A stretch of 64,000 nt of DNA from Candidatus Tayloriibacteriota bacterium. GTDB lineage: Bacteria; Patescibacteriota; Minisyncoccia; Phycocordibacterales; PALSA-1337. The DNA is taken from assembly GCA_903839695.1 (NCBI GenBank), contig CAIMDI010000010.1:6703-70702 (forward strand), given 5' to 3'. The number at the start of each line of letters is the position of its first letter. The stretch's first letter is position 1. Position numbers and translations under genes: made by a program. The notes beneath the pieces are model-generated. The model ran no database searches. It was not told where the DNA came from and was given only the letters and a program-made list of their open reading frames with translations. Below are positions 4,950 through 46,803 of this stretch, piece after piece.

Positions 4950-5081
4950 TTTCTGTAAAAAAAATATTCAGGCACAATATTTTAATCTTGGTAATATTGA
5001 CCATGATTTTTTTTGCCTCATAATGTATTCAAATATGTACCAAATTTATTTTACTAATTAATTATTCTTAAAAATTATCTC

Positions 5082-5681
5082 ATGCAAGAAACAGAACCAA
5101 TATATTTTACAAAATTTAGGGAAGGTATAGATAGGAGATTTGACTCTATGGACAAGAGATTCGATTCTATGGATAGAAAGTTTGAGGCTGTAGACTTAAA
5201 GTTTATTGCGATGGATAAAAAGTTTGACGCAATAGATAAAAGGTTTGACTCTATGGACAAAAAGTTTGATGCGATAGACTTAAGATTTGTTGCGATGGAC
5301 AAAAAGTTCGATGCTATAGACTTAAGATTTGCTGCGATGGATAAAAAGTTTGACGCAATAGACTTAAGATTTGACTCAATATACAAGAGGTTTGACTCTA
5401 TGGATAAAAAGTTTGATGCCATAGATAAAAGGTTTGTTAATATGGACAAAAAGTTTGATGCTATTGATGTTAAATTCGTTACTATAGATGAGAATTTCAA
5501 AAATATCAGTTCTCAACTTACTGACATAAGAAATATGCAGGACATTCATTTTGAGGCTATTGGCGGGGTAAAAATCCAAATAACAGAGATTATTGAAGCA
5601 TTGGATAGAAAGGCAGATGTTGCTGATGTAAAAGCATTAGAATATCGAACTAAAAAGCTTGAGTCTCTAGCTTTTGCATAA
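5082..5681 (+). CDS. coiled-coil protein built from ~17 near-identical heptads (DKKFDAI / DLRFVAM)
   Basis: Perfect 7-residue periodicity with F and I/M at the a/d positions. The ends are non-repetitive (C-terminal ...ALEYRTKKLESLAFA). Orientation matches the flanking genes. An antisense ORF at 5075..5500 is also open, so strand choice is uncertain. Confidence 0.5.
   Translation: MQETEPIYFTKFREGIDRRFDSMDKRFDSMDRKFEAVDLKFIAMDKKFDAIDKRFDSMDKKFDAIDLRFVAMDKKFDAIDLRFAAMDKKFDAIDLRFDSIYKRFDSMDKKFDAIDKRFVNMDKKFDAIDVKFVTIDENFKNISSQLTDIRNMQDIHFEAIGGVKIQITEIIEALDRKADVADVKALEYRTKKLESLAFA
5130..5500. repeat. tandem 21-bp (heptad-encoding) repeat tract
   Basis: The units atggataaaaagtttgacgcaatagac and ttaagatttgttgcgatggacaaaaag recur ~17 times with small variations. 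Confidence 0.8.
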
Positions 5682-20569: not shown

Positions 20570-23500
20570 TTATTCTAATACTTTAACTCTTTCTACGATC
20601 ATACTTTTTTGACCATTTCGTTCTGACATTTTTCCTTTAACTGCGATGCATTTGTCAGGCACAAAGGCATTCTTAAATTCAAAGAGTATGCGAGGGAAGA
20701 CAACAGTTTCTAAGTCTCCAGAAAAGTCTGCTACTTTTACAAAAGCCATTAAATCACCTTTCTTTGTATTGATTGGTTTTATTTCCTCAACAATGCATGC
20801 AATTGTAAATTCCTCACCGTCTATTAACGTTTCTTTTGCGTTTTTAATATTCATATCTCTTTTTGATATAATTTCTTTATAGCGATCAAGGGGATGACCA
20901 GAGATATACAATCCAAGTAACTCCTTTTCCCAAGCAAGTTTTTCCCTAATCTCAGCATTTGGCACTTCAGCAAGTTTTAATTGAGGAATCGAAGATGTAT
21001 CTGTCATAAGACCAAATAATGATTCTTGATTTTCTGTGTTTTTATCTTTCTCTTTATTATATGCAAGAATAGTTTCGACATTACCCATAAGAATTCCACG
21101 ATCAATACCAAAATTATCTAATGCACCTACTTTGATTAATGCTTCAAGAGATTTTTTATTTAAATTCCTATCTTTTACTCTATCAAGAAAGTCAGAAAGA
21201 GATTTGAATTTACCATTTCTTTTTCTTTCGTCAATTATGGCTGTAGCAATACCCTGGCCAAAGTTTTTTATTGTTACTAATCCAAAGCGAATAGTATCTT
21301 TATTTTCTCCCTCACGTTTTACCACGGTGAATTGACTAAAGCTTTCATTAATATCTGGAGGTAAAATAGGTATTTGCATTCTTTTACATTCACCAATTAT
21401 TTCTGCAATTTTTTCTACATCACCAGAATCCGCTGTTAGAACTGCGGACATATAAATAGCGGGGAAATTGGCCTTCATATAGGCTGTTTGATATGCTACG
21501 CGACCGTAGGATGCAGCGTGGGAATTATGTACTACAAAATCATTTGCAATAAAATTGTGATCAGGTGGAACTGTTAAATCATACGTCATTTCTTTTGCAG
21601 ACTTTTTTATCGAAACTATTTCATCCCAATATATATCAGAATTAGCTAAATTAATTAATTCCTCTGATTTTAACTCCATACCAATTATATTAATAGTTCC
21701 TCTTTGAAAACCGATTTTATTTTTATCAAAGGAAAATATCCTCTTTGATAATCCTAGTTTTTCCGAAATACTATTTACAGAAATATTTTTTTCAAGCATT
21801 ATTTTTCTAATATAAACTAATACCATCGCAGGAATTATATCCTTTGTTCCTCTTGCGGGATTGTCTGAAAGATGATCAGTGTTTTTCGCTAAAATGATCA
21901 TATCTAATTTCTTTTTGCCAATTAAATGTTTGCCAATTCCACTTTTAAATTTTACTAAGTTAATTCTTCCAGAGACAACTATGGTATATCCAAGTTTATA
22001 TCCATTTTTGTATTTAAATTTTTTATTATGAATAGTTGAAATGATTCCAAGTCTCAGTAATAGATGTTGAGTATCTGTTGATAACTTGTACGAACTAGTG
22101 GCGTAATATACTTGTTGGTTTTTTATACTGATACAACCGTCCCCTTGCCACATTTTACCCAACAGAATTTCCAATGACTCCTTGTTATACTCAAAAGCAA
22201 ATTTAGGAATATATTTTTCCGTTGCTTTATGATATGAAAGCCCCATTTCTTTTATCCATTGAAATATAGAATTGCCGTCTTTATTATTATTTTGACCACA
22301 ATATACAGCAATTGCCGCTTTACTTTTATCAATAGTAAATTTTATATTTTTAAATATACTTGCATTTTTAATAAAATCATTAACTTCATTTTCTTGTTTT
22401 GAATAGAAATAGATTCCATGAGGATGGCAAAAATTACCTTCTGAAATTAAATAACCCAGACTCGCTGCTTTCTCTGGTTCGGAGATTTTGCCGAGTATTT
22501 TCTCTAAAGTTCTTGGTACAGCTATTCTTTGTCCAACTTTTAATTCTCCAAGATTAGTCCAACCACTAAATGTTAGGAATGGATGATTTTCTGTTGCTTT
22601 TATATTCTTGCCAAGTCTAGTCTTTAATTCAAATATATTTTTAATACCGTTTTCCATTACGGCACTTATTTGATTTGACTTAAGTGAATGCTTTGAAGAT
22701 AAAGAAAGTATTTTTAGTTTTAAATTATTTTCATATATTTCCTTCGCCGTGTGAATTTGTCCTGTGTTAGAGTTTACTATTTTTGTATCTCCGACTATAC
22801 ATTTATTGAATCCATACGCAGCGAAAGGTTCAATAAGCTTCCATAATTGATTTGCTTTTGTTTTTGCCATTCCATTTTTTACTAAACCAGAAAGCAATTT
22901 TTCTTTTTGTTCCTCCATGTCTTTGGGAATTTTTTTACCCATAGCCTTTCGGAGCTTATCAGCCTCCAACCAAGAATATCCGCCAAGCTTGATGGCTATC
23001 ATCATAACGTCATCCTGATATGTAATAACTCCATAAGACATATCAAGTATATCTTTCATTCTAGGGTCTAAATATTCTATTTTGGTATTATCATGTTTTC
23101 TTTCAATATATTGAGGTATGGATTCTATCGGGCCTGGGCGATACAATGCCACCATAGCGTTAATATCATGTACTCTAGATGGTTTTAGTTCAACAAGGAA
23201 TTTGGTCATTCCTGCTCCGTTTAATTGAAATAGACCTATAGTCTCACCTCGAGCTAGCATTTCAAAAGTTTTTTTATCATCCAAAGGTATATTCTCGATA
23301 TCAATCAATTTATTTTCAATTTTTTTAACTCTTTCAACTGCATCGGCAAGTATTGAAAGATTTTTTATTCCTAGAAAGTCAAATTTTAAAAGCCCGACAC
23401 CATCTTCACCAACTGCATGCATATCATATTGAGTTATGATTTTTTTGGTTCCATCTTCTTTGCCTTTTGTATCGTATTGAAGTGGTACATGTTCTGTTAA

Positions 23501-25159
23501 TGGATCTGGAGAAATAACCACACCTGCTGCGTGAACAGAAATGTGTCTTGCACATCCTTCAATTTTTTTTGCCATATCAATAATTCGTTTTGTATCTGTT
23601 TCTCTGTCGTATGCGTCTTTTAATTCAGAAACTTCAGTTAAGGCTCTATCTATAGTCATTGGAAAACCTTGCGCACCCATTGGAATTAATTTAGAAATTC
23701 TATCAGCAATATCATAAGGATAACCCATAGCTCTGGCTACGTCTCTTACTGCACCTCTTGCCATCATTGTTCCGAATGTACCGATTTGTGCAACTTTATC
23801 ATGACCGTATTTTTTGCGTGTATATTCTATAACCTCATCGCGTCTATTATCGGCAAAGTCCATATCAATATCAGGTGCCGAAGGTCTTTCAGGATTTAGA
23901 AATCTTTCAAAGGGAAGTTTGTATGCTAATGGATCTACATTGGTAATTTTCGTTAAATATGTAGTAAGTGAACCTGCAACCGATCCTCGAATATTAGTTA
24001 GAATTCCATTTTCATGTGCATATCTTAATAAATCAGATACCACAAGAAAATATTGTGCATATCCTTTATTTTTTATAATCATTAATTCGTATTCAAGTCT
24101 ATCAACAACTTCTTTTGTGGGACTAAGGCCTCGAATGGGAATACCCTCGTATGCCAATCTTTTTAATTCATCATCATGAGATAGTCCACTTTCAACTATG
24201 AAATTTGGAAAATACCATTTACCCAAAGTAATATCTAAATTACACATTTCTGCAATTTTTATTGTATTTGCAATGGCTTCAGGAATATCTTTAAATAATT
24301 CTTCAGCTTTTTCTTGAGAAATGAAAGAAAAATCTTCTTCATCTTCAGAATTATTCATTCCACCACCAGCAGAATTTCTATCAGATATATCACCTGATGT
24401 ATTTACAAGCATTAATGTATCACGAGCTTCTCTATCTTCTTGATGTAAATAATATACATCGTGACCAGCAACTATTGGTGTATTGGTTTGACGTGCAATT
24501 TTAATTAATTCCTGCATAAGATTTTCATGTCCTTGAATCTCTGGATGACGTGTAATTTCAATATAAAAATTATCTTCACCGTATGTTTTTTTGTAAAAAT
24601 TTATAGTCTCAATTGCCTTATCAATATTTTTTGATTTTATGGCTTGTGATATTTCACTAGAAAAGGATGGTGAAATGCAAATTAAATTATCTTTGTATTT
24701 TTCTATAAGTTCTTTATCAATACGAGGTTTGTAATAAAAACCTTCTAGATTTGAATCTGTCACTAATTTGATTAAATTCTTGTAGCCATCATAATTTTTG
24801 GCAAGTAAAATATGGCGTGTTCGGCGATTGTCTATTCCTGCTTGCATATCTTTCCTTCCTCTCAATGCCATGTAAAAGTCTACACCCAATATAGGCTTTA
24901 TACCTTTCTTTTTACATCGCTGATAGAATTCTATAGCACCATAAAGGTTTCCAGCATCAGTTAATGCCAGCGCTGTCATGTTTTGTTTTATAGCTTCGTC
25001 TACCAAATCATCTATTTTAGGAAGGGCATTGAGCAATGAATAATGACTGTGAGTATGTAGATGAATGAATTTGGACATATTACCATTATAGCAAATATCG
25101 TAGGTTATCCCCAAGTTCTTAAGATTTGATAAATTATTTGCAAAATTTGCTATGGACAA
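20570..25159 (-). CDS. dnaE: DNA polymerase III alpha subunit, interrupted in-frame by an intein
   Basis: PHP domain HLHTHSHYSLL. Polymerase core. The conserved GFNK|SHAASY block is split by a 426-aa insertion. OB-fold C-terminus. Confidence 0.9.
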   Translation of the reverse strand: MSIANFANNLSNLKNLGITYDICYNGNMSKFIHLHTHSHYSLLNALPKIDDLVDEAIKQNMTALALTDAGNLYGAIEFYQRCKKKGIKPILGVDFYMALRGRKDMQAGIDNRRTRHILLAKNYDGYKNLIKLVTDSNLEGFYYKPRIDKELIEKYKDNLICISPSFSSEISQAIKSKNIDKAIETINFYKKTYGEDNFYIEITRHPEIQGHENLMQELIKIARQTNTPIVAGHDVYYLHQEDREARDTLMLVNTSGDISDRNSAGGGMNNSEDEEDFSFISQEKAEELFKDIPEAIANTIKIAEMCNLDITLGKWYFPNFIVESGLSHDDELKRLAYEGIPIRGLSPTKEVVDRLEYELMIIKNKGYAQYFLVVSDLLRYAHENGILTNIRGSVAGSLTTYLTKITNVDPLAYKLPFERFLNPERPSAPDIDMDFADNRRDEVIEYTRKKYGHDKVAQIGTFGTMMARGAVRDVARAMGYPYDIADRISKLIPMGAQGFPMTIDRALTEVSELKDAYDRETDTKRIIDMAKKIEGCARHISVHAAGVVISPDPLTEHVPLQYDTKGKEDGTKKIITQYDMHAVGEDGVGLLKFDFLGIKNLSILADAVERVKKIENKLIDIENIPLDDKKTFEMLARGETIGLFQLNGAGMTKFLVELKPSRVHDINAMVALYRPGPIESIPQYIERKHDNTKIEYLDPRMKDILDMSYGVITYQDDVMMIAIKLGGYSWLEADKLRKAMGKKIPKDMEEQKEKLLSGLVKNGMAKTKANQLWKLIEPFAAYGFNKCIVGDTKIVNSNTGQIHTAKEIYENNLKLKILSLSSKHSLKSNQISAVMENGIKNIFELKTRLGKNIKATENHPFLTFSGWTNLGELKVGQRIAVPRTLEKILGKISEPEKAASLGYLISEGNFCHPHGIYFYSKQENEVNDFIKNASIFKNIKFTIDKSKAAIAVYCGQNNNKDGNSIFQWIKEMGLSYHKATEKYIPKFAFEYNKESLEILLGKMWQGDGCISIKNQQVYYATSSYKLSTDTQHLLLRLGIISTIHNKKFKYKNGYKLGYTIVVSGRINLVKFKSGIGKHLIGKKKLDMIILAKNTDHLSDNPARGTKDIIPAMVLVYIRKIMLEKNISVNSISEKLGLSKRIFSFDKNKIGFQRGTINIIGMELKSEELINLANSDIYWDEIVSIKKSAKEMTYDLTVPPDHNFIANDFVVHNSHAASYGRVAYQTAYMKANFPAIYMSAVLTADSGDVEKIAEIIGECKRMQIPILPPDINESFSQFTVVKREGENKDTIRFGLVTIKNFGQGIATAIIDERKRNGKFKSLSDFLDRVKDRNLNKKSLEALIKVGALDNFGIDRGILMGNVETILAYNKEKDKNTENQESLFGLMTDTSSIPQLKLAEVPNAEIREKLAWEKELLGLYISGHPLDRYKEIISKRDMNIKNAKETLIDGEEFTIACIVEEIKPINTKKGDLMAFVKVADFSGDLETVVFPRILFEFKNAFVPDKCIAVKGKMSERNGQKSMIVERVKVLE
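21524..22801 (-). mobile_element. intein (426 aa) with a LAGLIDADG-type homing endonuclease domain inside dnaE
   Basis: Starts with Cys right after GFNK (CIVGDTKI). Block B is GKNIKATENHPFLT (TxxH). LAGLIDADG-like motifs LGYLISEGNF and LLGKMWQGDGCIS. Ends ...FVVHN, followed by Ser+1 of SHAASY. The boundaries are in frame (residues 787-1212). Confidence 0.8.
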
Positions 25160-26089: not shown

Positions 26090-26989
26090 ATGGCAAACAG
26101 ACATCTTTCAAGATCAGTAGTACTCCAATCACTCTTTGAGTGGGACTTTCGAGGTTGTCATAATGAAACTATAAAAGAAACAGTCACTCGTATATCGAAG
26201 GAATTTGCTCCTGGTATGAGTGATTTTTCTTTTGTTCAAGAATTAATAGATAGTATTTTGGCGAAAAAGAATGATTTGGATGAAGTTATTACCAAGGCCG
26301 CACCAGATTGGCCTTTAGACAAAATATCACTTATTGATAGAAATATTTTAAGAATTGGTTTATACGAATTACTTTTTGCAAATAGAGATGAAGTTCCAGC
26401 AAAAGTAGCTATAAATGAGGCTATTGAGTTGGCAAAAAGTTTTGGTGGTGAAAACAGTAGTAAATTCGTAAATGGAGTGTTGGGATCTGTTTATAAAGAA
26501 ATTGGAGAGCCTGGAAAAGATTCTATTTCAAAGAAAAAGAAAAAAATTGAAGATATTCCATACGAACAAATGCCGATACAAAATCTAGGCGGAGCTGTAG
26601 TATATTCTAGACATGAAGGAGAGATATATTTAGCTTTTGTTCATGATATATTTGGACATTGGACTTTGTCTAAGGGTAAAATTCCTGAAGGTGATGTAAA
26701 GATAGGTACAATTGCTAAAATTAAAGAGGAAATGGGATTGGATGTAGAAATAGTAGATGATTTAGGTGATAACGGTTATATTGCAAGTGATCCAGAAAAA
26801 GGAAAATTAAGAAAACACGTTCATTACTTTTTGGCTGAGTCAAAGTATGAAAATATAAAGCTAGCTCAAAAACCTGGTCTCGATGACGCTAAATGGTTCA
26901 AATTATCAGACATATTAGAATTAAATTTCTATAATGATATTTTACCAATAGTAACAAAAGCTATCACAATTTTGAATAAAAAAATATAA
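26090..26989 (+). CDS. nusB: NusB antitermination factor fused to a C-terminal Nudix-fold domain
   Basis: Residues 1-140 form the NusB fold (RHLSRSVVLQSLFEWDF...LIDRNILRIGLYELLF). Residues ~165-295 match a Nudix fold (GGAVVYSRHEGEIYLAFVH; GHWTLSKGKIPEGDVKIGTIAKIKEEMGL resembling the Nudix box; VHYFLAES; AKWFKLSDILEL). Confidence 0.65.
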   Translation: MANRHLSRSVVLQSLFEWDFRGCHNETIKETVTRISKEFAPGMSDFSFVQELIDSILAKKNDLDEVITKAAPDWPLDKISLIDRNILRIGLYELLFANRDEVPAKVAINEAIELAKSFGGENSSKFVNGVLGSVYKEIGEPGKDSISKKKKKIEDIPYEQMPIQNLGGAVVYSRHEGEIYLAFVHDIFGHWTLSKGKIPEGDVKIGTIAKIKEEMGLDVEIVDDLGDNGYIASDPEKGKLRKHVHYFLAESKYENIKLAQKPGLDDAKWFKLSDILELNFYNDILPIVTKAITILNKKI

Positions 26990-26994
26990 ATTCT

Positions 26995-27690
26995 ATGCCC
27001 GATTATTTAAAATTCTCTGAAAAATTAAATGTAAAATTTAATGATATAAGTCTCCTCAAAAGAGCTTGTACACATCGTTCATATTTAAATGAAAATAAAT
27101 CAGCAGGTTTAGAGCACAATGAAAGATTAGAATTTCTTGGAGATGCAGTTTTGGAATTGGTTGTAACTAGTTTTCTTTTTAGAAAATACCCAGGTAAAAA
27201 CGAAGGAGATTTAACATCTTACAGATCAGCACTTGTAAATACACATAGTTTGTCAAAAGTAGCACTTCATATAGGTGTTGATGAATATATTTTATTGTCA
27301 AAAGGAGAATCCAGAGATACAGGAAGGGCAAGGTCAATTATTCACGCAGATACCATAGAGGCTATTATTGGTTCAGTATATTTGGATCAAGGTTATGATG
27401 CCGCAGCCAATTTTATTTCTGAACAATTATTAGAGGTAATAGACATAGATGATATTGTAGAAAATAAAACATGGTTAGATGCAAAAAGCCGATTTCAAGA
27501 AAAAGCGCAAGAGATGACAGGACTAACTCCATCATATAAAACTGTAAAAGAAACAGGACCAGATCATAGCAAAATATTCACATTGGGTGTATTCATAGGT
27601 GACACACAAGTCGCTCTCGGCTCAGGAATGTCAAAACAAGAAGCAGAGCAAAAAGCTGCAGAAAAAGCATTGGAAGTGAAGGGATGGTAA
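26995..27690 (+). CDS. rnc: ribonuclease III
   Basis: ERLEFLGDAVLELVVTSFLF signature. C-terminal dsRBD (..GPDHSKIFTLGVFIGDTQVALGSGMSKQEAEQKAAEKAL). Confidence 0.9.
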   Translation: MPDYLKFSEKLNVKFNDISLLKRACTHRSYLNENKSAGLEHNERLEFLGDAVLELVVTSFLFRKYPGKNEGDLTSYRSALVNTHSLSKVALHIGVDEYILLSKGESRDTGRARSIIHADTIEAIIGSVYLDQGYDAAANFISEQLLEVIDIDDIVENKTWLDAKSRFQEKAQEMTGLTPSYKTVKETGPDHSKIFTLGVFIGDTQVALGSGMSKQEAEQKAAEKALEVKGW

Positions 27691-27883: not shown

Positions 27884-29020
27884 ATGAAAATACATAGATA
27901 TTTAAAGGATAGGCTGGTAGCCAGTCTAGGCAAAAAAAAGATACTTATTGTGTATGGTCCTCGACAAGTTGGTAAAACTACACTAGTAAAAGAATTTCTA
28001 ATCGATAATGCCAATAGTGTTTATTATAATTGTGATCAAGACGAGACTCGTATTCTTTTTGAAGAAGCAAATCTAGAGAAGCTTGGATTTTTGGTAAAAA
28101 AATACGATACTATCGTTATAGATGAAGCCCAAAAGGTAAAAAATATCGGTTTATCTTTAAAGATCATTTTTGATAATTTCCCAGATAAAAATTATATAGT
28201 TACAGGATCTTCATCTTTTGATCTCGCAGAGTCTGTGTCCGAGCCACTTACTGGTAGATTTTTCTCATACACGATGTTCCCAGTTGCAGAAGTAGAATTA
28301 TCTAGGGACAAAAATCCTATTGAAATTAGAGAATCACTCGAGACTCGTTTGATATATGGTTCATATCCAGAAGTTATTACTGCACCCGATATTGAAACAA
28401 AAAAAGAAATAATAAAAAATATTACATCAAATTATTTATTTAAAGATATTCTAGCTTTAGATATAATACGAAATTCAGATGATTTGAAAAAGTTATTGCA
28501 AGCATTAGCTCTACAGAGTGGTAATGAAGTCTCTTATACAGAACTTGCACAGACACTAGGTATTGATAAAAATACTGTAAAAAAATATCTAGAAATTTGT
28601 GAAAAGCTTTATATATTATTTTCATTATCACCTTATGCATCAAAAAAGCGTAAATCAATATCAATGCTTAAAAAGTATTATTTTTTTGATCTTGGTATTA
28701 GAAATGCTCTAATAAATAATTTTAATTCACTTTCAACTAGGAATGATACTGGGGCACTTTGGGAAAATTATATGATTCTGGAAAGGATGAAGTATAACTC
28801 CGCAAGAGGTTTTGATCCTATATATTATTTCTTTCGTTCATACGATATGCAGGAGATAGATTTGTTTGAAGATGAGGGAGGTGTGATAAATGGATTTGAG
28901 TTCAAATTTACTAAAGGTAATATAAGTCGTACCATGAAGGATATATTTGATAATGATATAGAAGGTAAGGAATTAAAGATTATTAGTAGGGATAACTACT
29001 CAGAGTTTATTGGAGGGTAA
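27884..29020 (+). CDS. AAA+ ATPase of the AAA_14/DUF4143 family
   Basis: Walker A GPRQVGKTTL, Walker B IVIDEAQ. The C-terminal half has the typical DUF4143 layout. Confidence 0.75.
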   Translation: MKIHRYLKDRLVASLGKKKILIVYGPRQVGKTTLVKEFLIDNANSVYYNCDQDETRILFEEANLEKLGFLVKKYDTIVIDEAQKVKNIGLSLKIIFDNFPDKNYIVTGSSSFDLAESVSEPLTGRFFSYTMFPVAEVELSRDKNPIEIRESLETRLIYGSYPEVITAPDIETKKEIIKNITSNYLFKDILALDIIRNSDDLKKLLQALALQSGNEVSYTELAQTLGIDKNTVKKYLEICEKLYILFSLSPYASKKRKSISMLKKYYFFDLGIRNALINNFNSLSTRNDTGALWENYMILERMKYNSARGFDPIYYFFRSYDMQEIDLFEDEGGVINGFEFKFTKGNISRTMKDIFDNDIEGKELKIISRDNYSEFIGG

Positions 29021-29072: not shown

Positions 29073-29128
29073 TTATGCTAAAATATACGCATGTATTTGA
29101 AGTCATTAGAGATTTCTGGATTTAAGTC
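29073..29128 (+). repeat. direct-repeat copy B: the native smc promoter (-10 TGCTAAAAT) plus the smc start
   Basis: Partner of 27724..27779. Confidence 0.7.
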
Positions 29129-31298
29129 CTTTGCTAAAAAGGCTACTTTAAATTTTACTTCACCGATTTCTTCTATAGTTGGTCCTAATGGCTCCGGCAA
29201 ATCAAATGTTGCTGAAGCTTTTCGTTTTGTCCTTGGTGAACAATCCATAAAATCTATGCGTGGAAAAAGAGGTGAAGATTTGATATTTAATGGAGGTGGA
29301 GATGGCGCAAGGGTTAATCGTGCTGGAGTAAAAGTTATTTTTGATAATTCAAAGAGAATGCTAAATGTTGACTTTGATGAAGTTGCTATTGAGCGTGTCG
29401 TGCACAGAGATAATTCAAATGAATATTTTATCAATGGCTCTCCAGTAAGATTGAGAGATATTGTGGAACTTTTAGCTCATGCACATATTGGTGCTTCTGG
29501 TCATCATATTATTTCTCAAGGAGAAGCTGATAGAATACTAAATGCTAATATTCGTGAGCGAAGGGAAATGATAGAAGATGCTTTAGGATTAAAGATTTAT
29601 CAATATAAAAAAGCTGAAAGTCAAAGAAAACTTGAAAAAACAGAAGAAAATATGAAATCTGTTGAGTCTTTAAGACGTGAAATTGCACCGCATTTAAAAT
29701 TTCTAAAAAAACAAGTTGAAAAAGTAGAAAAAGTTCAACAATTGAGAGAAGAATTAAGAAATTTATATAAAGAATATTTTAAAAGAGAAGAAACATATTT
29801 AAAAGATGAAAGAAAAAAGATTGATAATGAAAAAGATCCTTTAGTAAAGGAATTAGCACAACTTGATATTGAAATAGCTGAAGCAAGAAATATTCTTGAA
29901 AATTCAAAAAATCGTGATTCCAAAAGCGATGAGCTTATAAACTTAGAAGGATCATTGTATAAGATTAGAATTGAAAAGGATTCTGTTATGAGGGAAGTAG
30001 GAAAAATTGAAGGAGAAATATCATCAGGAAATCGTACTATTTCTAAAGAAAAGGAAAAGCAAGCGAGAGATGAATTTAAGACTATATATTTAAAGGACGT
30101 TGAGGAAATTGTAAATAGAGTTAGTTTAATAGACAGTTTAGATGAGATTAGGCAGATATTGTCTAGATTTATTTCTTCGCATAAAAATAAGGAGGACTCT
30201 GCTTTAATTGCTGAAATCGAAAAGGAAATTTCTGAATTAAAAAATAAAAAGAAAGATTTTGAAAATAATTTGATTAGAATTACTGATGAAGAAAAAGCTA
30301 GAACACTAGAGTACAATGAATTGCGTCAAAAAATCGAAAGAGAAAAGGATTCAAATAGAGATGCAGAAAAAAATGTATTTAGAATAATTGCTAGACAAAA
30401 TGAAGTTAGAGGAGTGTTAAATGGAGCTAGAACACGTGAAGAAAAGTTAATGTTTGAAGAAGAAGCTCATAAAAGAGAAATGCAAGAAGCATATGCTATT
30501 GTAGGTCGCGAAGCCTTGGATAATAAGGATCTTATCTTGTCTGATGAACCTCGTCCTTTACAATACGATAGATTAAAAAATATTGAAAAAATTAAAGTTC
30601 GTATTGAGGACTCTGGCGCAGGGAATAGTTTTGATATTTTAAAAGAGTATAAAGAAGTTGAGGAAAGAGATATTTTTCTTGCAAAGGAAATTCAAGATCT
30701 CGAAGTATCCAAAGTAAATTTAAATAATATGATTTCTGATTTAGATGCACGTATAGATATTGAATTTAAAGAAGGAATACTAAAAATTAATGCACAATTT
30801 CAACAATATTTTTCTCTGATGTTTGGTGGAGGTAATGCTGGATTAAATGTTATTAGAGAAAAAAAGAGATTGAAAAAATCTGACACCGATCTTTCGGCTG
30901 TACTTGCTGATAATGTTGAAAATATAATTGAAAATGAAGGTGAAGAGGGAATTGAAATAAATGTAAGTTTACCTAGAAAAAAGGTAAAGGGTCTCATGAT
31001 GCTTTCAGGAGGCGAAAGAGCACTTACCTCTATCGCTTTGCTTTTCGCTATTTCTCAAGTAAATCCACAACCTTTTATTATTCTTGATGAAACTGATGCT
31101 GCATTAGATGAGGCAAATTCTAGAAAATACGGTGATATGATTGCCAATCTATCGCAATATTCTCAATTAATACTTATTACTCACAATCGCGAGACAATGT
31201 CACGTGCAGGAGTATTGTACGGAGTAACAATGGGCGGAGATGGTGCTTCAAAATTATTATCAATTCAATTTGAAGAAGCTGTTCAAGTAGCAAAATAA
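29091..31298 (+). CDS. smc: SMC-family chromosome-segregation ATPase, unusually short (735 aa) with no recognisable hinge
   Basis: SMC head N-terminus MYLKSLEISGFKSFAKKATLNF..GPNGSGKSNVAEAFRFVLGEQS. SMC head C-terminus LSGGERALTSIALLFAISQ..FIILDETDAALDEANSRKYGDMI..ITHNRETMSRAGVLYGVTM. The middle ~430 aa are coiled-coil-like with no GxxG hinge motifs. Confidence 0.75.
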   Translation: MYLKSLEISGFKSFAKKATLNFTSPISSIVGPNGSGKSNVAEAFRFVLGEQSIKSMRGKRGEDLIFNGGGDGARVNRAGVKVIFDNSKRMLNVDFDEVAIERVVHRDNSNEYFINGSPVRLRDIVELLAHAHIGASGHHIISQGEADRILNANIRERREMIEDALGLKIYQYKKAESQRKLEKTEENMKSVESLRREIAPHLKFLKKQVEKVEKVQQLREELRNLYKEYFKREETYLKDERKKIDNEKDPLVKELAQLDIEIAEARNILENSKNRDSKSDELINLEGSLYKIRIEKDSVMREVGKIEGEISSGNRTISKEKEKQARDEFKTIYLKDVEEIVNRVSLIDSLDEIRQILSRFISSHKNKEDSALIAEIEKEISELKNKKKDFENNLIRITDEEKARTLEYNELRQKIEREKDSNRDAEKNVFRIIARQNEVRGVLNGARTREEKLMFEEEAHKREMQEAYAIVGREALDNKDLILSDEPRPLQYDRLKNIEKIKVRIEDSGAGNSFDILKEYKEVEERDIFLAKEIQDLEVSKVNLNNMISDLDARIDIEFKEGILKINAQFQQYFSLMFGGGNAGLNVIREKKRLKKSDTDLSAVLADNVENIIENEGEEGIEINVSLPRKKVKGLMMLSGGERALTSIALLFAISQVNPQPFIILDETDAALDEANSRKYGDMIANLSQYSQLILITHNRETMSRAGVLYGVTMGGDGASKLLSIQFEEAVQVAK

Positions 31299-31325: not shown

Positions 31326-33290
31326 CTAATTAACTTTTGCAAAATCAAGAGTTTTTTTGTCTAAATCTGCGGACATTACTTTAAATTTGATAGCATCACC
31401 TAAAGTAAATTTATTTTTTGTTTTCTGACCAACTATAGAATATGTTTTACTGTTAAATTCGTAATAATCGTCACCAATATCGCGGATTTTTATCATTCCT
31501 TCAGATTTTGTTTCATTTTCTTCTACATATAATCCCCATTCAGTAACTCCAGATATTTTACCTTCAAAAACTTGACCAACTTTATCAGACATATATTCAA
31601 CTTGTTTCAATTTCTTTGATTCTCTTTCAGCAATAGAAGCATCAATTTCTCTCGCTGTAGACTTTTCTGCTATGTTTTGGAATTGTACTATTTCGGTATC
31701 TCCAAAGGGTTCATTATGCAAATGTCTTTGAAGAATTCTTTGAATTAGTAAATCAGGATATCTTCTTATTGGAGATGTAAAATGAGTGTAATATTCAAAA
31801 GCTAAGCCGAAATGGCCTATGTTTTTCGTTGAATAAACAGCTTTTTGCATAGATCTTATAACTGCTGTGCTAATTAATGCCTCATGAACAGTGCCTGAGA
31901 TTTGCTTTAATAGGGATTTTATATCATGTGCAGTAACTTTTCCATTTTTTGTTTCCAATTTGTATCCGAGAGCTTTTACGAAATTTGATAAATCTAACAT
32001 TCTTTCTTGATCAGGAATATCATGTATTCTGTAAATCGAACCCGTGTCTTTTTTGCCTTTCTTTTTTATGGAGTCAAAAATATGTTTGGCAACTTCGCGA
32101 TTTGCTAAAAGCATGTATTCTTCAACAAGTTTGTGTGTATCAAGTCTCGGTTTTTTGTAAACACCTACAGGCTTGCCGTTTTCATCTAGTTTAAATTTGA
32201 TTTCTTCTTGCTCAAATTCTATTGCACCTTTTCTAAATTTTTCTTTTTGAAGATTTTTGGCAATGTAATTTAACTTATCTAGCTCGGTAAAATATTGACC
32301 AGATTTTGTATTTAATGAATCTTGAGCGTCTTCATAAGTAAATCTATGATTTGAATTGATAATTGATTTACCAAAGCCTCTTTCTATTACATGGCCACTA
32401 TTATTCATTGTAAACCAAGCTGAAAAGGTTAATTTGTCTTCATTTGGGTTTAAACTGCAGACGTCATTTGATAATACTTCAGGAAGCATGGGTATAGTGC
32501 GATCCACTAGATAAATTGAGCAACCTCGTTTAAAGGCTTCTTTGTCTAAAGCTGATCCTTCCTTTACATAATGACTAACATCAGCAATATGTACGCCAAT
32601 TTCATATTTACCTCCTTCTAATACTTTAAATGAAATCGCATCGTCAAAATCCTTGGCATCAAATGGGTCGATTGTAAAAGTAAGTGTATTTCTAAAGTCC
32701 TTTCTTTTTGGTATTTCAGACTCGATATCAGAAATTTTATTTCTACTAATTTCGCTGGCTTCATTTTCAACTGATACAGGGAAGTCAATTTCAAATCCTT
32801 TTTCCAGAACTATACTTTCCATTTCAGCATTATTATTTCCTTTTTTACCAATTACTTTTATTAATTTTCCTGTTGGATTTTTCTTTGAATCAGTCCATTC
32901 ATTCATTTTTACAAAGACTTTATCACCAATAGATATTTTGTTTATATCGCTTTGCTCTAAAACAATAGATGCATAAGCCTTTTTGTCATCTGGGTATGCT
33001 GTCAAAACTCCTTCACGACTATCTATAGTACAAACAAAAGTATCGCGATTTCTTTCAACTACTTTTATTACTTCTGCAGACAACTGACCATATGAATTTT
33101 TCTTACCAATTTTAATTTCAACCGTATCACCATTTAATGCTGTATTTAGAAAACCAACATCTATCATAATGTCCTTTTCTGTGTTTTTGGGGTCTTTAAC
33201 AAAGCCCATACCCTTACGATTGGTCATTATAATTCCAATCAATGTATTGGCCCCTGTTTTTTGCTTTTTCATTCGAATACTATAACCCAT
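31326..33290 (-). CDS. rnr: ribonuclease R (RNB-family 3'-5' exoribonuclease)
   Basis: Cold-shock/OB N-terminus. RNB motif IDPFDAKDFDDAIS. C-terminal S1 domain VGQVFEGKISGVTEWGLYV. The start was set to the internal Met (MGYSIR), because the upstream ORF extension overlaps rpsP. Confidence 0.8.
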   Translation of the reverse strand: MGYSIRMKKQKTGANTLIGIIMTNRKGMGFVKDPKNTEKDIMIDVGFLNTALNGDTVEIKIGKKNSYGQLSAEVIKVVERNRDTFVCTIDSREGVLTAYPDDKKAYASIVLEQSDINKISIGDKVFVKMNEWTDSKKNPTGKLIKVIGKKGNNNAEMESIVLEKGFEIDFPVSVENEASEISRNKISDIESEIPKRKDFRNTLTFTIDPFDAKDFDDAISFKVLEGGKYEIGVHIADVSHYVKEGSALDKEAFKRGCSIYLVDRTIPMLPEVLSNDVCSLNPNEDKLTFSAWFTMNNSGHVIERGFGKSIINSNHRFTYEDAQDSLNTKSGQYFTELDKLNYIAKNLQKEKFRKGAIEFEQEEIKFKLDENGKPVGVYKKPRLDTHKLVEEYMLLANREVAKHIFDSIKKKGKKDTGSIYRIHDIPDQERMLDLSNFVKALGYKLETKNGKVTAHDIKSLLKQISGTVHEALISTAVIRSMQKAVYSTKNIGHFGLAFEYYTHFTSPIRRYPDLLIQRILQRHLHNEPFGDTEIVQFQNIAEKSTAREIDASIAERESKKLKQVEYMSDKVGQVFEGKISGVTEWGLYVEENETKSEGMIKIRDIGDDYYEFNSKTYSIVGQKTKNKFTLGDAIKFKVMSADLDKKTLDFAKVN

Positions 33291-33330
33291 ATTGCCTTTT
33301 TTTAATAGGTCTGGTAGTATAGCCCCTATG

Positions 33331-33699
33331 TTAATGATTCGATTACAACGAGTAGGAAGAAAGCACGAACCAGTTTTTCGTCTTGTTTTGACTGACTCAA
33401 AAAATGGTCCAAAGAGTGGTAAATATCTAGAAGTACTAGGTTCATATGATCCACGCTTAGATAATAAGATTGAGAATTTCAATATTCCTAAAATAAAGCT
33501 ACATATATCAAATGGTGCTAAACTTTCAAATACCGTTTTCAATTTCCTAGTAACAAAGAAAATCCTTGAAGGAAAAAAGATCAACGCTTTACCAAAAAGA
33601 ACACCTATCAAAAAAGAAGAAGCTAAAGTAGAAGAAAAAAAGGCAGTAGAAGCTCCCGTAGTGGATTCAACTCCAGTAGAAGCTCCAGTTCAAGCATAG
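33331..33699 (+). CDS. rpsP: 30S ribosomal protein S16 (with an A/P/E/K-rich C-terminal extension)
   Basis: MLMIRLQRVGRKHEPVFRLVLTDSKNGPKSGKYLEVLGSYDP. The start was taken at the internal Met. Confidence 0.85.
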   Translation, partial: LMIRLQRVGRKHEPVFRLVLTDSKNGPKSGKYLEVLGSYDPRLDNKIENFNIPKIKLHISNGAKLSNTVFNFLVTKKILEGKKINALPKRTPIKKEEAKVEEKKAVEAPVVDSTPVEAPVQA

Positions 33700-33809
33700 T
33701 ATTTTAAGAAAATACACTTAACTGTGCAAAACTCATTTTGATTCTTTAACTCATCACGGTACAATATGTATCGTAGTTGTTTGATTATAAGATAATAAGT
33801 AAAACAGAT

Positions 33810-34136
33810 ATGAACAGTAATAATGATCAGCAGTTTCTAGAGTTTGTGGTTAAGTCATTGGTAGAAAATCCAAATGACGTAAAAATCGCAAGAACCGTAG
33901 ATGAGATGGGCGTTCTAATGACATTATCAGTAAATGCAGCAGATATGGGTAAAGTTATCGGTAGAGCAGGAAATACTGCAAAAGCTATCAGAACTTTACT
34001 AAGAGTTGTTGGAATGAAAAATAACTCTAGAGTTAATCTAAAGATTAACGAACCAGAGGGAGGATTGAAGTCAGTACCTATGGTAGAAAAAGCTTCAAAA
34101 ACAGTAGATGAAGCGATGGCAGATTTAAAGATTTAA
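33810..34136 (+). CDS. KH-domain RNA-binding protein (the UPF0109 family, usually found between rpsP and trmD)
   Basis: FLEFVVKSLVENPNDVKI...MGKVIGRAGNTAKAIRTLL (GxxG KH motif). Conserved position in the rpsP cluster. Confidence 0.7.
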   Translation: MNSNNDQQFLEFVVKSLVENPNDVKIARTVDEMGVLMTLSVNAADMGKVIGRAGNTAKAIRTLLRVVGMKNNSRVNLKINEPEGGLKSVPMVEKASKTVDEAMADLKI

Positions 34137-34202
34137 TTTTAAAAGTGACAATCTTAAAAAAACGTGATAATATAAAATCACGTTTTTTTAATTAGCAAAT
34201 CA

Positions 34203-34874
34203 ATGAATTATCATATTATTTCACTATTTCCGCAATCTTTTGATTCATATATTTCTGAATCTATTCTTAAGCGTGCACAAGAGAATAAAAAAATAAAAAT
34301 TAAATTCTATAATCCTCGTGATTTCACAATCGCTTCAGGCAAAGGGAAAAAACAAAGTTACTCTGATCGTCGTGTAGACGATAAACCTTATGGTGGCGGA
34401 CCCGGTATGGTCATAGAGGCCCTTCCTGTGATAAAAGCCATTGCAAAAGCAGTAGGTAAAAAATCAAATAAAAAGAAGGTTAAAATTGTGTGGTTTACGC
34501 CTTCAGGGAAACAATTTGATACAACTTATGCAAAGGAATTGGCTGTAAAATATACTGATATTGTATTTGTATGCGGTCGCTATGAAGGTATAGATGCCAG
34601 AGTTAAATCTGCTTTTAAAATGGATGAAATATCTATTGGCCCTTTTATTCTTACTGGAGGGGAATTGCCTGCTATGTTATTGATTGATTCTATTTCAAGA
34701 CAAATTTCTGGAGTATTAGGTGACAACACCTCTCTCGAAGAAAATCGTATTGCTTGTTCAGATGTATATACACGTCCAGAAGTAGTAGAATATAAAGGAA
34801 AGAAATATAAAGTACCAAAAGTCCTTCTTTCTGGTAATCACAAACTCATTGATGAATGGAAAAAAAATAAATAA
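34203..34874 (+). CDS. trmD: tRNA (guanine37-N1)-methyltransferase
   Basis: MNYHIISLFPQSF N-terminus of the SPOUT fold. DDKPYGGGPGMV and GRYEGIDARV motifs. Confidence 0.9.
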   Translation: MNYHIISLFPQSFDSYISESILKRAQENKKIKIKFYNPRDFTIASGKGKKQSYSDRRVDDKPYGGGPGMVIEALPVIKAIAKAVGKKSNKKKVKIVWFTPSGKQFDTTYAKELAVKYTDIVFVCGRYEGIDARVKSAFKMDEISIGPFILTGGELPAMLLIDSISRQISGVLGDNTSLEENRIACSDVYTRPEVVEYKGKKYKVPKVLLSGNHKLIDEWKKNK

Positions 34875-46374: not shown

Positions 46375-46803
46375 ATGAAAAAAGATTATAAAGAATGGTT
46401 TAAATTTAAACCTATAGTTAACAATATTGAGAATAATATTAGAGCTCGAACTGGCGAAATCTGGTACTGTCACTGGGGGACTAATGTTGGTTCGGAATTT
46501 GATGGCAAGGGCCAAAATAGCATAAGACCAGTTTTAATAATTAAAAAGACTAGTCCTAATACATTCTTATGTTTACCGCTAACAAGTAATGGTAAAGATT
46601 TGCCAATGTATTTTAAATTAAACTCATTTAATACAAAATCTAGTATTGTATTGGATCAGATTCGCTCAATAGATTCAAAAAGATTTTTTAGGTTCATAGA
46701 ACAAGTATCTGATAAGGAGTTAAAAAATATAATAGATAAGTTGGTTCATTATATAAAAGGCGAAACCCCGCCAAATGGCGGGGAATCTCGGCGGTCCAAC
46801 TAA
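46375..46803 (+). CDS. MazF/PemK-family type II toxin (endoribonuclease) homologue, with no antitoxin gene evident
   Basis: [27 protein letters not shown] is similar to EndoA [40 protein letters not shown] is similar to [29 protein letters not shown] is similar to LDDEMMDKVDEAL. Confidence 0.6.
   Translation: [142 protein letters not shown]
46766..46783 (+). other. perfect GC hairpin CCCCGCC-AAAT-GGCGGGG inside the 3' end of the MazF-like ORF
   Basis: 7-bp all-GC stem in a genome of ~32% GC. No U-run follows. Confidence 0.4.

What the first reader, a model, noticed from the sequence alone, without database searches (positions are those of the whole stretch)
29091..31298. Canonical SMC heads on a 735-aa protein with no hinge
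Both head halves align residue-for-residue in pattern with condensin-type SMC (FKSF, GPNGSGKSN, LSGGE..LDE..DAALD). The protein is ~450 aa shorter than bacterial SMC. The central region is continuous coiled-coil-like sequence with no Gly-rich hinge motifs and no Cys hook. Dimerisation would therefore have to occur differently, as in RecN or MukB-like apex contacts. Alternatively the protein works as a minimal SMC. Either would be unusual for the housekeeping condensin.
Basis: partly seen in the sequence, partly recalled or inferred. Interest (0 to 1): 0.55.

Follow-up and report, generated by a model that had tools for sequence, protein, structure and literature searches.

The report
Half-length SMC without a hinge
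This gene is the normal chromosome-organising SMC ATPase of a tiny 'candidate phyla radiation' bacterium, but its dimerising hinge is replaced by a short helical cap and its arms are half the usual length. The same design is conserved across hundreds of related lineages, so it offers a natural test of what the hinge is for.

Summary
ORF 29091-31298 (+) encodes a 735-aa protein with complete, canonical Smc head halves, no cysteine and no hinge.

Against the bacterial SMC profile TIGR02168 (1181 positions), residues 2-330 match positions 1-331 and residues 365-726 match 848-1180. About 35 residues therefore replace the distal half of both arms plus the hinge. Pfam, a hinge HMM built here and profile-profile comparison find no hinge remnant, while the same tests detect hinges in 976-1191-aa controls. 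AlphaFold2 gives a coiled-coil hairpin closed by two ~15-residue helices.

It is not an artefact. All 150 best representatives at 50% clustering are 577-780 aa. Further hinge-less forms of about 710-1079 aa occur in many Patescibacteria lineages.

It sits at the ancestral housekeeping position, nusB-rnc-smc-rpsP-KH-trmD, so it is most likely the Smc orthologue and not a RecN-like paralogue.

Two things could not be tested: how it dimerises, and whether ScpA/ScpB or a second SMC exist elsewhere in the genome.

I found no paper describing this in Patescibacteria. A 2025 paper reports hinge-less SMCs in marine Actinobacteria. I rate it a new variant of a known kind, of moderately high interest.

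The parts
29091..31298 (+). smc gene: 735-aa hinge-less, short-armed SMC (stop codon included)
   Evidence: ORF. SMC_N E 5.9e-62. TIGR02168 536 bits. 5xg3 E 2.9e-87.
29091..29585 (+). N-terminal head half (aa 1-165), with Walker A GPNGSGKSN (aa 31-39, nt 29181-29207), R57 and Q-loop Q143
   Evidence: Residue-for-residue alignment with the B. subtilis Smc head. G31-K37, R57 and Q143 are invariant in 138 diverse family members.
29592..30065 (+). N-terminal arm helix (aa 168-325). It matches TIGR02168 positions up to 331, which is the head-proximal half of a canonical arm.
   Evidence: AF2 helices 168-272 and 275-325, pLDDT about 90. Profile mapping. The stretch aa 160-309 is 149 aa (IQR 148-150) across the family.
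30066..30194 (+). Apex cap (aa 326-368): two short helices (about 328/332-346 and 350-365) that replace the distal arms plus the hinge
30195..30725 (+). C-terminal arm helix (aa 369-545), including a helix break at aa 471-487 (nt 30501-30551) that corresponds to the Smc joint
   Evidence: AF2: H369-470, break, H488-508, H513-578. TIGR02168 positions 848-1180 match aa 365-726. The best fold match is 5xei, an Smc head with coiled coil and joint. The joint lies at B. subtilis residues 922-1011 (PMC5526789). Placing the break inside it rests on my own offset estimate.
30726..31295 (+). C-terminal head half (aa 546-735), with signature LSGGE (nt 31002-31016), Walker B/D-loop FIILDETDAALD (nt 31074-31109) and H-loop H698
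   Evidence: Alignment with 5xg3. S639-E642, D666, E667, D669, H698 invariant.
30852..30944 (+). Family-specific insertion in the C-terminal head (aa 588-618): a basic cluster (EKKRLKK) followed by an acidic run
   Evidence: The FxGG-to-LSGGE spacing is 41-42 aa in 16 of 16 canonical SMCs. It has a median of 61 aa (45-87) in 130 short forms. The second half of the insert has a mean net charge of -5.
26090..27690 (+). Upstream conserved neighbours: nusB-NUDIX fusion (26090-26989) and rnc, RNase III (26995-27690)
   Evidence: The nusB-rnc-smc order is found in L001, L003, most GTDB loci and the longer hinge-less classes.
27884..29020 (+). AAA_14/DUF4143 ATPase gene inserted between rnc and smc. 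It is local to this genome and not part of the SMC system.
   Evidence: Pfam. It is absent from this position in L001 and L003.
31326..34874 (.). Downstream conserved neighbours: rnr, RNase R (-, 31326-~33350); rpsP, S16 (+, ~33328-33699); KH-domain khpA (+, 33777-34136); trmD (+, 34203-34874)
   Evidence: The same order occurs in L003, L168, L169 and L171. It matches my recollection of the Bacillus order rnc-smc-ftsY-ylxM-ffh-rpsP-khpA-rimM-trmD.

Best explanation
This is the housekeeping Smc orthologue of a low-GC Patescibacteria (Paceibacteria/Parcubacteria-type) bacterium. It belongs to a very large lineage of SMC proteins in which the globular hinge has been replaced by a short all-helical cap.

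In this sub-family the distal half of both arm helices is also gone. What remains is the ATPase heads, the kleisin-binding neck, the joint and arms of about 170 residues, half the B. subtilis length.

Shown:
- The head motifs are intact.
- The hinge is absent.
- The arm truncation is symmetric.
- The joint-region helix break is retained.
- The architecture is conserved across hundreds of lineages.
- The gene occupies the ancestral smc position.

Inferred:
- It still works as an ATP-driven, DNA-clamping SMC motor, presumably with a kleisin.
- Two subunits are held together by ATP-dependent head engagement, by side-by-side arm (rod) contacts, and probably by the amphipathic helical cap, which would act as a minimal dimerisation element.
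- This would give a ring or rod about half the usual length, fitted to a genome of 0.6-0.9 Mb.
For: Heads:
- 5xg3 E 2.9e-87; SMC_N E 5.9e-62.
- All ATPase motifs are invariant in 138 diverse members.

Deletion map:
- TIGR02168 positions 1-331 and 848-1180 are matched; 332-847 are missing.

No hinge:
- Pfam SMC_hinge is not among the families shared by 67 diverse members; only the top 25 of 81 matched families are listed, so a single-member hit cannot be excluded.
- Pfam SMC_hinge is absent in 5 divergent GTDB forms, while four 976-1191-aa controls score 1e-24 to 1e-35.
- hhalign probability is 0.1-0.2%, and the hinge HMM built here gives a best E of 0.011 on the short forms against 1e-38 to 1e-78 on the canonical SMCs it was built from.
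- In 228 further relatives only P0465 has a hinge (E 2e-35); the rest give a best E of 0.037.

Structure:
- Arms have pLDDT about 90, closed by a two-helix cap.
- The best fold match is the Smc head-coiled coil-joint structure 5xei.

Conservation:
-.
- The N-proximal arm length is fixed at 149 aa (IQR 148-150).

Orthology:
- nusB-rnc-smc-(rnr)-rpsP-KH-trmD synteny in the window and in all length classes.
- RecN model 52 bits against a cutoff of 408.

Plausibility of function without a hinge:
- In B. subtilis the hinge can be replaced by a Rad50 zinc hook.
- Arm length is under periodic constraint, with a possible minor natural mode reported at 163 aa (PMC5344682).
- Arm-arm contacts contribute to dimerisation of hinge-less Smc (PMC5526789).
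Against: - The protein misses the NCBIfam equivalog cutoff (536 against 567 bits) and lacks a defining SMC domain.
- ScpA/ScpB were not found in the window, its contig flanks or any fetched Patescibacteria locus. These cover only a small, largely syntenic fraction of a genome, so the partners are unverified.
- No dimer model could be made.
- The cap is poorly conserved in sequence across the wider family and has only moderate confidence in the monomer models (pLDDT about 57-83).
- In B. subtilis, hinge-mediated dimerisation is reported as essential for dynamic DNA interaction (Hirano & Hirano 2002, seen only as a reference title).
- In B. subtilis, most shortened Mini-Smc alleles fail to relocate from parS.
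Confidence: 0.75

Rival explanations
1. Same protein and same orthology, but the cap does not dimerise. Each subunit is a closed hairpin, and two subunits meet only at the ATP-engaged heads, bridged by a kleisin if one exists. There would be no closed inter-arm (S) compartment. DNA would be held only on top of the heads or in the kleisin compartment, so the complex would act as an ATP-gated clamp or bridge and not as a canonical two-compartment loop extruder.
For: - The apex sequence is weakly conserved across the wide family.
- The apex length is variable, 91-145 aa between conserved anchors.
- The family-wide basic/acidic insertion in the head could supply DNA or partner contacts lost with the hinge.
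Against: - A conserved amphipathic pattern in the two cap helices is visible across the sampled families by eye in the printed alignment and mid-regions; it was not quantified.
- Invariant hydrophobic residues in the close family (Y333, I353, L357, F360) suggest a packed or interacting element.
- The tight length control of the arms is what one expects if two arms must stay in register.
- Arm-arm contacts are known to support dimers of hinge-less Smc in B. subtilis.
Confidence: 0.3
2. It is an SMC-like paralogue with a specialised role (RecN-like repair, or defence as with Lamassu LmuB or Wadjet JetC). The true housekeeping condensin is encoded elsewhere in the genome.
For: - Hinge-less SMC-like ATPases of 550-800 aa are typical of RecN and some defence systems.
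- The whole genome could not be inspected.
Against: - It occupies the ancestral smc slot between rnc and rpsP-KH-trmD in every lineage examined.
- The heads are 40-50% identical to Firmicutes Smc over the N-terminal ~225-270 residues of the head (tblastn best segments).
- TIGR02168 scores 536 bits, against 52 for RecN and 50 for Rad50.
- There are no nuclease, defence or kleisin-like neighbours.
- A hinge-bearing relative (P0465) sits at the same locus in another small genome, which shows replacement at the locus and not duplication.
- Among 360 related proteins listed, none on the long contigs that carry short forms is a second, hinge-bearing copy. This is weak evidence, because only top hits are shown.
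Confidence: 0.07
3. It is an artefact: a mis-assembled, internally deleted or decaying smc pseudogene.
For: None beyond the unusual length.
Against: - The reading frame is intact, with all catalytic motifs.
- The identical protein occurs on 5 contigs (P0001).
- Hundreds of independent clusters from NCBI, ENA, JGI and Logan share the architecture.
- Heads and neck are under strong purifying conservation.
Confidence: 0.01

Closest known systems
Bacterial Smc of the Smc-ScpAB condensin (B. subtilis Smc; TIGR02168 SMC_prok_B)
   Same: Head halves, ATPase motifs, neck, the joint-region helix break and the rnc-smc gene position are shared. The N-terminal 330 and C-terminal 360 residues align collinearly with the profile.
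   Different: The PF06470 hinge and the distal half of both arms are missing (profile positions 332-847). It carries a charged insertion of about 20 aa in the C-terminal head. It scores below the equivalog cutoff. ScpA/ScpB partners are unverified.
Engineered Mini-Smc and Smc(Zn-hook) chimeras of B. subtilis (Buermann et al. 2017, PMC5344682)
   Same: They have shortened arms and/or the hinge replaced by an unrelated small dimerisation element, and some retain function. That paper reports possible minor natural arm-length modes, one at 163 aa, close to the ~170-aa arms here.
   Different: Those are laboratory constructs that keep a bona fide dimerisation module (hinge or zinc hook). The shortest functional arms there were about 250 aa. 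This protein is natural, has no Cys and has no known dimerisation module.
'Hinge-less' SMC variants of marine Actinobacteria (Environ Microbiome 2025, PMC12153180)
   Same: [quoted passage not shown] They are abundant in nature and were not seen together with a regular SMC.
   Different: They come from a different phylum and were described from ocean gene catalogues. No sequences were available here, so relatedness, arm length and apex design could not be compared. They most likely represent an independent loss.
RecN
   Same: It is an SMC-like ATPase of comparable size, with no globular hinge, whose coiled coils meet at the apex.
   Different: The RecN model scores 52 bits against a cutoff of 408. 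The head sequences and gene context here are those of Smc. RecN has much shorter coiled coils and an SOS/repair role (from general knowledge).
Rad50/SbcC
   Same: They are ABC-type heads on a long antiparallel coiled coil without a hinge.
   Different: They need a CxxC zinc hook and an Mre11/SbcD nuclease partner. This protein has no Cys, the window holds no such neighbour, and the Rad50 models score about 50 bits or less against cutoffs of 700-1087.

Membership tests
Prokaryotic Smc (Smc-ScpAB condensin) | Bipartite ABC ATPase head with Walker A, Q-loop, signature LSGGE, Walker B, D-loop and H-loop | tested here: met
   The motifs are invariant across 138 members.
Prokaryotic Smc (Smc-ScpAB condensin) | Intramolecular antiparallel coiled-coil arm with a head-proximal joint | tested here: met
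   AF2 helices with a break at aa 471-487. Best fold match is 5xei, head + coiled coil + joint. The arm is only about 170 aa, against 344 aa in B. subtilis.
Prokaryotic Smc (Smc-ScpAB condensin) | Central globular hinge dimerisation domain (PF06470) | tested here: not met
   No hit at E <= 1. Not among the families shared by 67 relatives; only the top 25 of 81 families are listed. hhalign probability 0.1-0.2%. Positive controls score 1e-24 to 1e-35. Only about 40 residues lie between the arm helices.
Prokaryotic Smc (Smc-ScpAB condensin) | Score above the NCBIfam TIGR02168 equivalog cutoff | tested here: not met
   536.0 bits against a cutoff of 567.35. It is by far the best family hit.
Prokaryotic Smc (Smc-ScpAB condensin) | Kleisin ScpA and kite ScpB encoded in the genome | not testable with these tools
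   None were found in the 64-kb window, its contig flanks or about 25 Patescibacteria loci, using HMMs built from PDB and 80 metagenomic sequences. Whole genomes could not be read.
Prokaryotic Smc (Smc-ScpAB condensin) | Conserved chromosomal position next to rnc, upstream of the rpsP-KH-trmD cluster | tested here: met
RecN | Match to the RecN equivalog model (TIGR00634) | tested here: not met
   51.9 bits against a cutoff of 407.85.
Rad50/SbcC | CxxC zinc hook at the coiled-coil apex | tested here: not met
   No Cys in the protein. Only 2 of 138 relatives have any CxxC in the middle region.
MukB/MksB/JetC | MukB-type N-terminal domain and adjacent MukE/MukF-like genes | tested here: not met
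   PF04310 gives only marginal hits in 9 of 67 members, best E 0.005. No such neighbours are seen.
Hinge-less SMC variants (marine Actinobacteria, PMC12153180) | SMC heads plus coiled coil, with no hinge and no CXXC | tested here: met
.
Hinge-less SMC variants (marine Actinobacteria, PMC12153180) | Common descent with the actinobacterial cluster | not tested
The carriers here are Patescibacteria.

The most novel reading that the evidence does not exclude
Across a large part of the Patescibacteria, the only SMC complex has no hinge at all. Its arms have been shortened in steps from about 330 to about 170 residues. If these complexes still organise chromosomes, then the hinge (its dimerisation, its DNA binding and any gate function) is dispensable for bacterial SMC function in nature, and a simple helical cap, or no apex contact at all, suffices. 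If they lack a closed inter-arm compartment, they represent a mechanistically distinct, clamp-only class of SMC motor.
Probability: 0.35. Interest if true: 0.8.

Novelty: new variant of a known kind. Interest (0 to 1): 0.62.

Why it matters
Current models of SMC action give the hinge several jobs: holding the dimer together, binding DNA, and acting as a DNA gate or anchor during loop extrusion. They also treat an arm of about 50 nm as functionally tuned.

A natural Smc orthologue that lacks the hinge, and in this sub-family has half-length arms, across hundreds of lineages is a ready-made experiment. It shows which parts evolution keeps: heads, neck, joint and a fixed-length proximal arm. It also shows which parts can go.

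The small size (735 aa, no Cys) makes the protein attractive for structural and single-molecule work. The series of natural lengths (about 735 to 1070 aa) offers a test of the arm-periodicity rule found by mutagenesis in B. subtilis. It also bears on how ultra-small genomes of 0.6-0.9 Mb are organised.

Tried and rejected
- ScpA/ScpB search with HMMs built from PDB sequences, over the window and 85 loci, found nothing.
- The contig flanks beyond the window hold no ScpA/ScpB.
- The IMG/VR scan found nothing.
- The metagenome scan returned 80 ScpB and 43 ScpA loci, but none is CPR-like. L126 looks Bacteroidota-like and L138 Clostridia-like.
- Improved HMMs again found nothing in the Patescibacteria loci. 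ScpAB presence is therefore left open, not rejected.
- Looking for a kleisin next to smc in five other length classes found none.
- A head-only NJ tree separates the window's family, the other hinge-less forms and canonical SMCs into three groups. It cannot be rooted reliably, so a single hinge loss and several losses cannot be told apart.
- An exact ~91-aa arm periodicity among the natural length classes is suggestive (sister pairs differ by 139-184 aa in total) but is not demonstrated.
- Literature searches for hinge-less SMC in Patescibacteria or CPR found nothing.
Full report
**1. The observation**

The window is low-GC (about 30-36%). It carries an intact ORF at 29091-31298 (+) that encodes 735 aa.
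- GFKSF at aa 10-14
- Walker A GPNGSGKSN at aa 31-39
- Q-loop Q143
- signature LSGGE at aa 638-642
- Walker B/D-loop FIILDETDAALD at aa 662-673
- H-loop H698

The two head halves align almost without gaps with the B. subtilis Smc head (PDB 5xg3, E 2.9e-87; aa 1-209 and 500-731). Pfam SMC_N spans aa 2-719 at E 5.9e-62.

The protein has no cysteine, and only seven glycines lie between aa 170 and 500. Pfam reports no SMC_hinge even at E <= 1.

**2. What exactly is missing**

The bacterial SMC equivalog TIGR02168 has 1181 positions. Residues 2-330 match positions 1-331 and residues 365-726 match positions 848-1180. About 35 residues therefore stand in for positions 332-847. That span is the distal half of the N-terminal arm helix, the hinge, and the distal half of the C-terminal arm helix. 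The truncation is symmetric and leaves arms of about 170 residues, half the 344 aa that Buermann et al. give for B. subtilis (PMC5344682).

AlphaFold2 on a 38-sequence alignment models the heads poorly but the arms well, with pLDDT about 90. The helices are 168-272 and 275-325, then two short helices 328-345 and 350-365, then 369-470, a break at 471-487, and helices 488-508 and 513-578. An apex-only model (aa 262-440, pLDDT 83) gives the same two-helix cap.

**3. Is a diverged hinge hiding there?**

No. The tests were:
- Pfam SMC_hinge is not among the families shared by 67 diverse relatives. Only the top 25 of 81 matched families are listed, so a hit in one member cannot be excluded.
- Pfam SMC_hinge is absent from five still more divergent GTDB forms. 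In the same call it is found at 1e-24 to 1e-35 in four controls of 976-1191 aa.
- A hinge HMM built here from 18 canonical SMCs scores those same sequences at 1e-38 to 1e-78. Its best E on about 160 short forms is 0.011.
- Profile-profile comparison of the apex or the whole middle region with the hinge profile gives 0.1-0.2% probability.
- There is also no room: a hinge needs about 150 residues, and the cap has about 40.

**4. Is it real, and how widespread is it?**

The identical protein is on five contigs. More than 120 clusters at 73-100% identity are all 730-756 aa and lack the hinge in precomputed Pfam. An exhaustive phmmer search of 1.8 billion representatives returns 150 best hits that are all 577-780 aa, down to 41% identity.

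GTDB genomes that carry such forms are labelled Patescibacteria, Parcubacteria, Paceibacterota, Minisyncoccia, Azambacteria and Uhrbacteria.

Searches seeded with an 810-aa form and a 991-aa form show that hinge loss is much broader than this short family. They list 228 related proteins of 582-1079 aa from bins named Kuenenbacteria, Komeilibacteria, Kerfeldbacteria, Buchananbacteria, Howlettbacteria, CPR2 and Patescibacteria. Only one of them has a hinge: P0465, 1019 aa, E 2e-35. The best E among the rest is 0.037.

Lengths cluster near 735-750, 765-780, 795-810, 840-855, 870-885, about 990, about 1020 and about 1065-1079 aa. The longest forms have essentially full-length arms but still only a helical cap. 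Hinge loss and arm shortening are therefore separable, and the window's family is at the short extreme.

Within the window's family the head-proximal N-arm is held at 149 aa (IQR 148-150). The distal part varies more, from 91 to 145 aa.

**5. Is it the housekeeping copy?**

The gene lies downstream of rnhB, the nusB-NUDIX fusion and rnc. It lies upstream of rpsP, a KH-domain gene and trmD, with rnr in between. This is the ancestral arrangement known from Bacillus, rnc-smc-ftsY-ylxM-ffh-rpsP-khpA-rimM-trmD (my own knowledge).

The nusB-rnc-smc-(rnr)-rpsP order recurs in most of the 21 loci with short forms that I inspected, and in the 882-, 991- and 1071-aa classes. The 766-aa form shows only smc-rpsP. 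The one hinge-bearing small-genome relative also shows smc-rpsP-KH.

RecN, Rad50 and MukB models score far below their thresholds. I therefore regard it as the Smc orthologue. I could not read whole genomes, so a second SMC elsewhere is not formally excluded.

**6. Partners**

No ScpA or ScpB is encoded in the window, in the contig flanks beyond it, or in about 25 Patescibacteria loci. This holds even with HMMs built from PDB sequences and then from 80 ScpB and 42 ScpA sequences recovered from metagenomes. These loci cover only a small, syntenic part of a genome, and scpAB are rarely next to smc, so this says nothing about the rest of the genome.

Indirect signs that a kleisin is still bound are the strong conservation of the neck (aa 196-210 and 496-540) and of the C-terminal cap strands.

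**7. How it most likely works**

Shown: the ATPase site is complete; the neck, the joint-region helix break and a length-controlled proximal arm are retained; the hinge is absent.

Inferred: the protein still undergoes ATP-driven head engagement and clamps DNA on the heads. The basic residues K59/R60, R120 and R122 align with B. subtilis K60, R120 and K122. Their role in DNA clamping is my recollection of Vazquez Nunez et al. 2019 and was not checked here.

If the joint is retained, ParB-dependent loading is conceivable, because ParB targets the Smc joint (PMC9449133).

Dimerisation must come from some mix of three things: head engagement plus kleisin bridging, side-by-side arm contacts, and the cap. 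Arm contacts are reported to contribute to dimerisation of hinge-less Smc in B. subtilis. The cap shows an amphipathic pattern, seen by eye in the printed sequences and not quantified, across the families sampled. Several of its hydrophobic residues are invariant in the close family.

The main alternative is that the cap does not dimerise. The complex would then lack a closed inter-arm compartment and would act as a clamp-only device.

A further family trait may compensate for functions lost with the hinge. It is a 20-45-aa insertion in the C-terminal head, made of a basic cluster followed by an acidic run. Canonical SMCs have an invariant 41-42-aa spacing at this site. Its role is unknown. 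The ~805-aa class lacks the insertion.

**8. Comparison with what is known**

Experiments in B. subtilis make a functional hinge-less Smc plausible. A Rad50 zinc hook can replace the hinge. Arm length is constrained periodically, with a period of about 91 aa. Natural arm lengths are multimodal, and one possible minor mode lies at 163 aa.

The only report of natural hinge-less SMCs that I found concerns a marine actinobacterial cluster (PMC12153180). Searches that combined SMC, hinge, ScpA or ScpB with Patescibacteria, CPR or Parcubacteria found nothing relevant. Public databases simply call these proteins 'chromosome segregation protein' or 'AAA family ATPase'.

**9. Verdict**

The feature is a natural, very widespread, hinge-less and (here) half-armed variant of the housekeeping Smc.

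I rate it a new variant of a known kind, with interest 0.62. Interest is limited by three points: dimerisation mode and partner set are untested, a second SMC elsewhere in the genome is not excluded, and there is a precedent in another phylum.

Noticed in passing
window 20570-25159 (-): dnaE (DNA polymerase III alpha) is 1529 aa because it carries an intein with a LAGLIDADG homing endonuclease (Intein_splicing at aa 801-1212, LAGLIDADG_3 at aa 1000-1076). The orthologue in L001 is 1081 aa and has no intein.
   Followed up: partly
window 27884-29020 (+): An AAA_14 + DUF4143 ATPase gene sits between rnc and smc only in this genome. In relatives rnc directly abuts smc, so this looks like a recent insertion into a conserved gene string.
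   Followed up: partly
window 26090-26989 (+): NusB is fused to a C-terminal NUDIX hydrolase domain. The fusion is conserved in the close relatives (L001, L003 and many GTDB loci), whereas the 991- and 1071-aa SMC lineages have a plain NusB of about 160 aa.
   Followed up: partly
window 30852-30944 (+), SMC aa 588-618: There is a family-wide insertion in the C-terminal SMC head: a K/R cluster followed by an acidic run. The FxGG-LSGGE spacing has a median of 61 aa, against an invariant 41-42 aa in canonical SMCs. Its function is unknown, and it is absent from the ~805-aa hinge-less class.
   Followed up: partly
window 5082-5681 (+) and 5075-5500 (-): A 199-aa protein is built from about 11-residue repeats (DKKFDAIDLRF and variants), with a long repeat-derived antisense ORF. 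Pfam gives only weak coiled-coil matches.
   Followed up: no
window 46375-46803 (+): A MazF/PemK-type toxin gene lies between rpoC and dnaG. I did not look for an antitoxin.
   Followed up: no
window 49899-52862 (+): A 987-aa fusion of a UvrD-type helicase with a C-terminal PD-(D/E)XK (Cas4-like) nuclease, similar to AddA/AdnB, lies directly after rpoD.
   Followed up: no
P0271-P0498; L167-L171: Hinge-less Patescibacteria SMCs fall into discrete length classes (about 740, 770, 800, 845, 875, 990, 1020 and 1070 aa). Sister pairs in a head tree differ by 139-184 aa, which suggests stepwise and possibly period-constrained changes in arm length.
   Followed up: partly
L170 (GCA_964394405.1, 596,879-bp contig), P0465: A small-genome relative keeps a hinge-bearing 1019-aa SMC at the same smc-rpsP-KH locus. 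It could serve as an outgroup for dating the hinge loss.
   Followed up: partly
L016, L022 (GTDB record titles); P0304: Bins that carry the Patescibacteria-type short SMC are labelled Bdellovibrionales, Gammaproteobacteria and Woesearchaeota in their records. These are probably mislabelled or contaminated bins.
   Followed up: no
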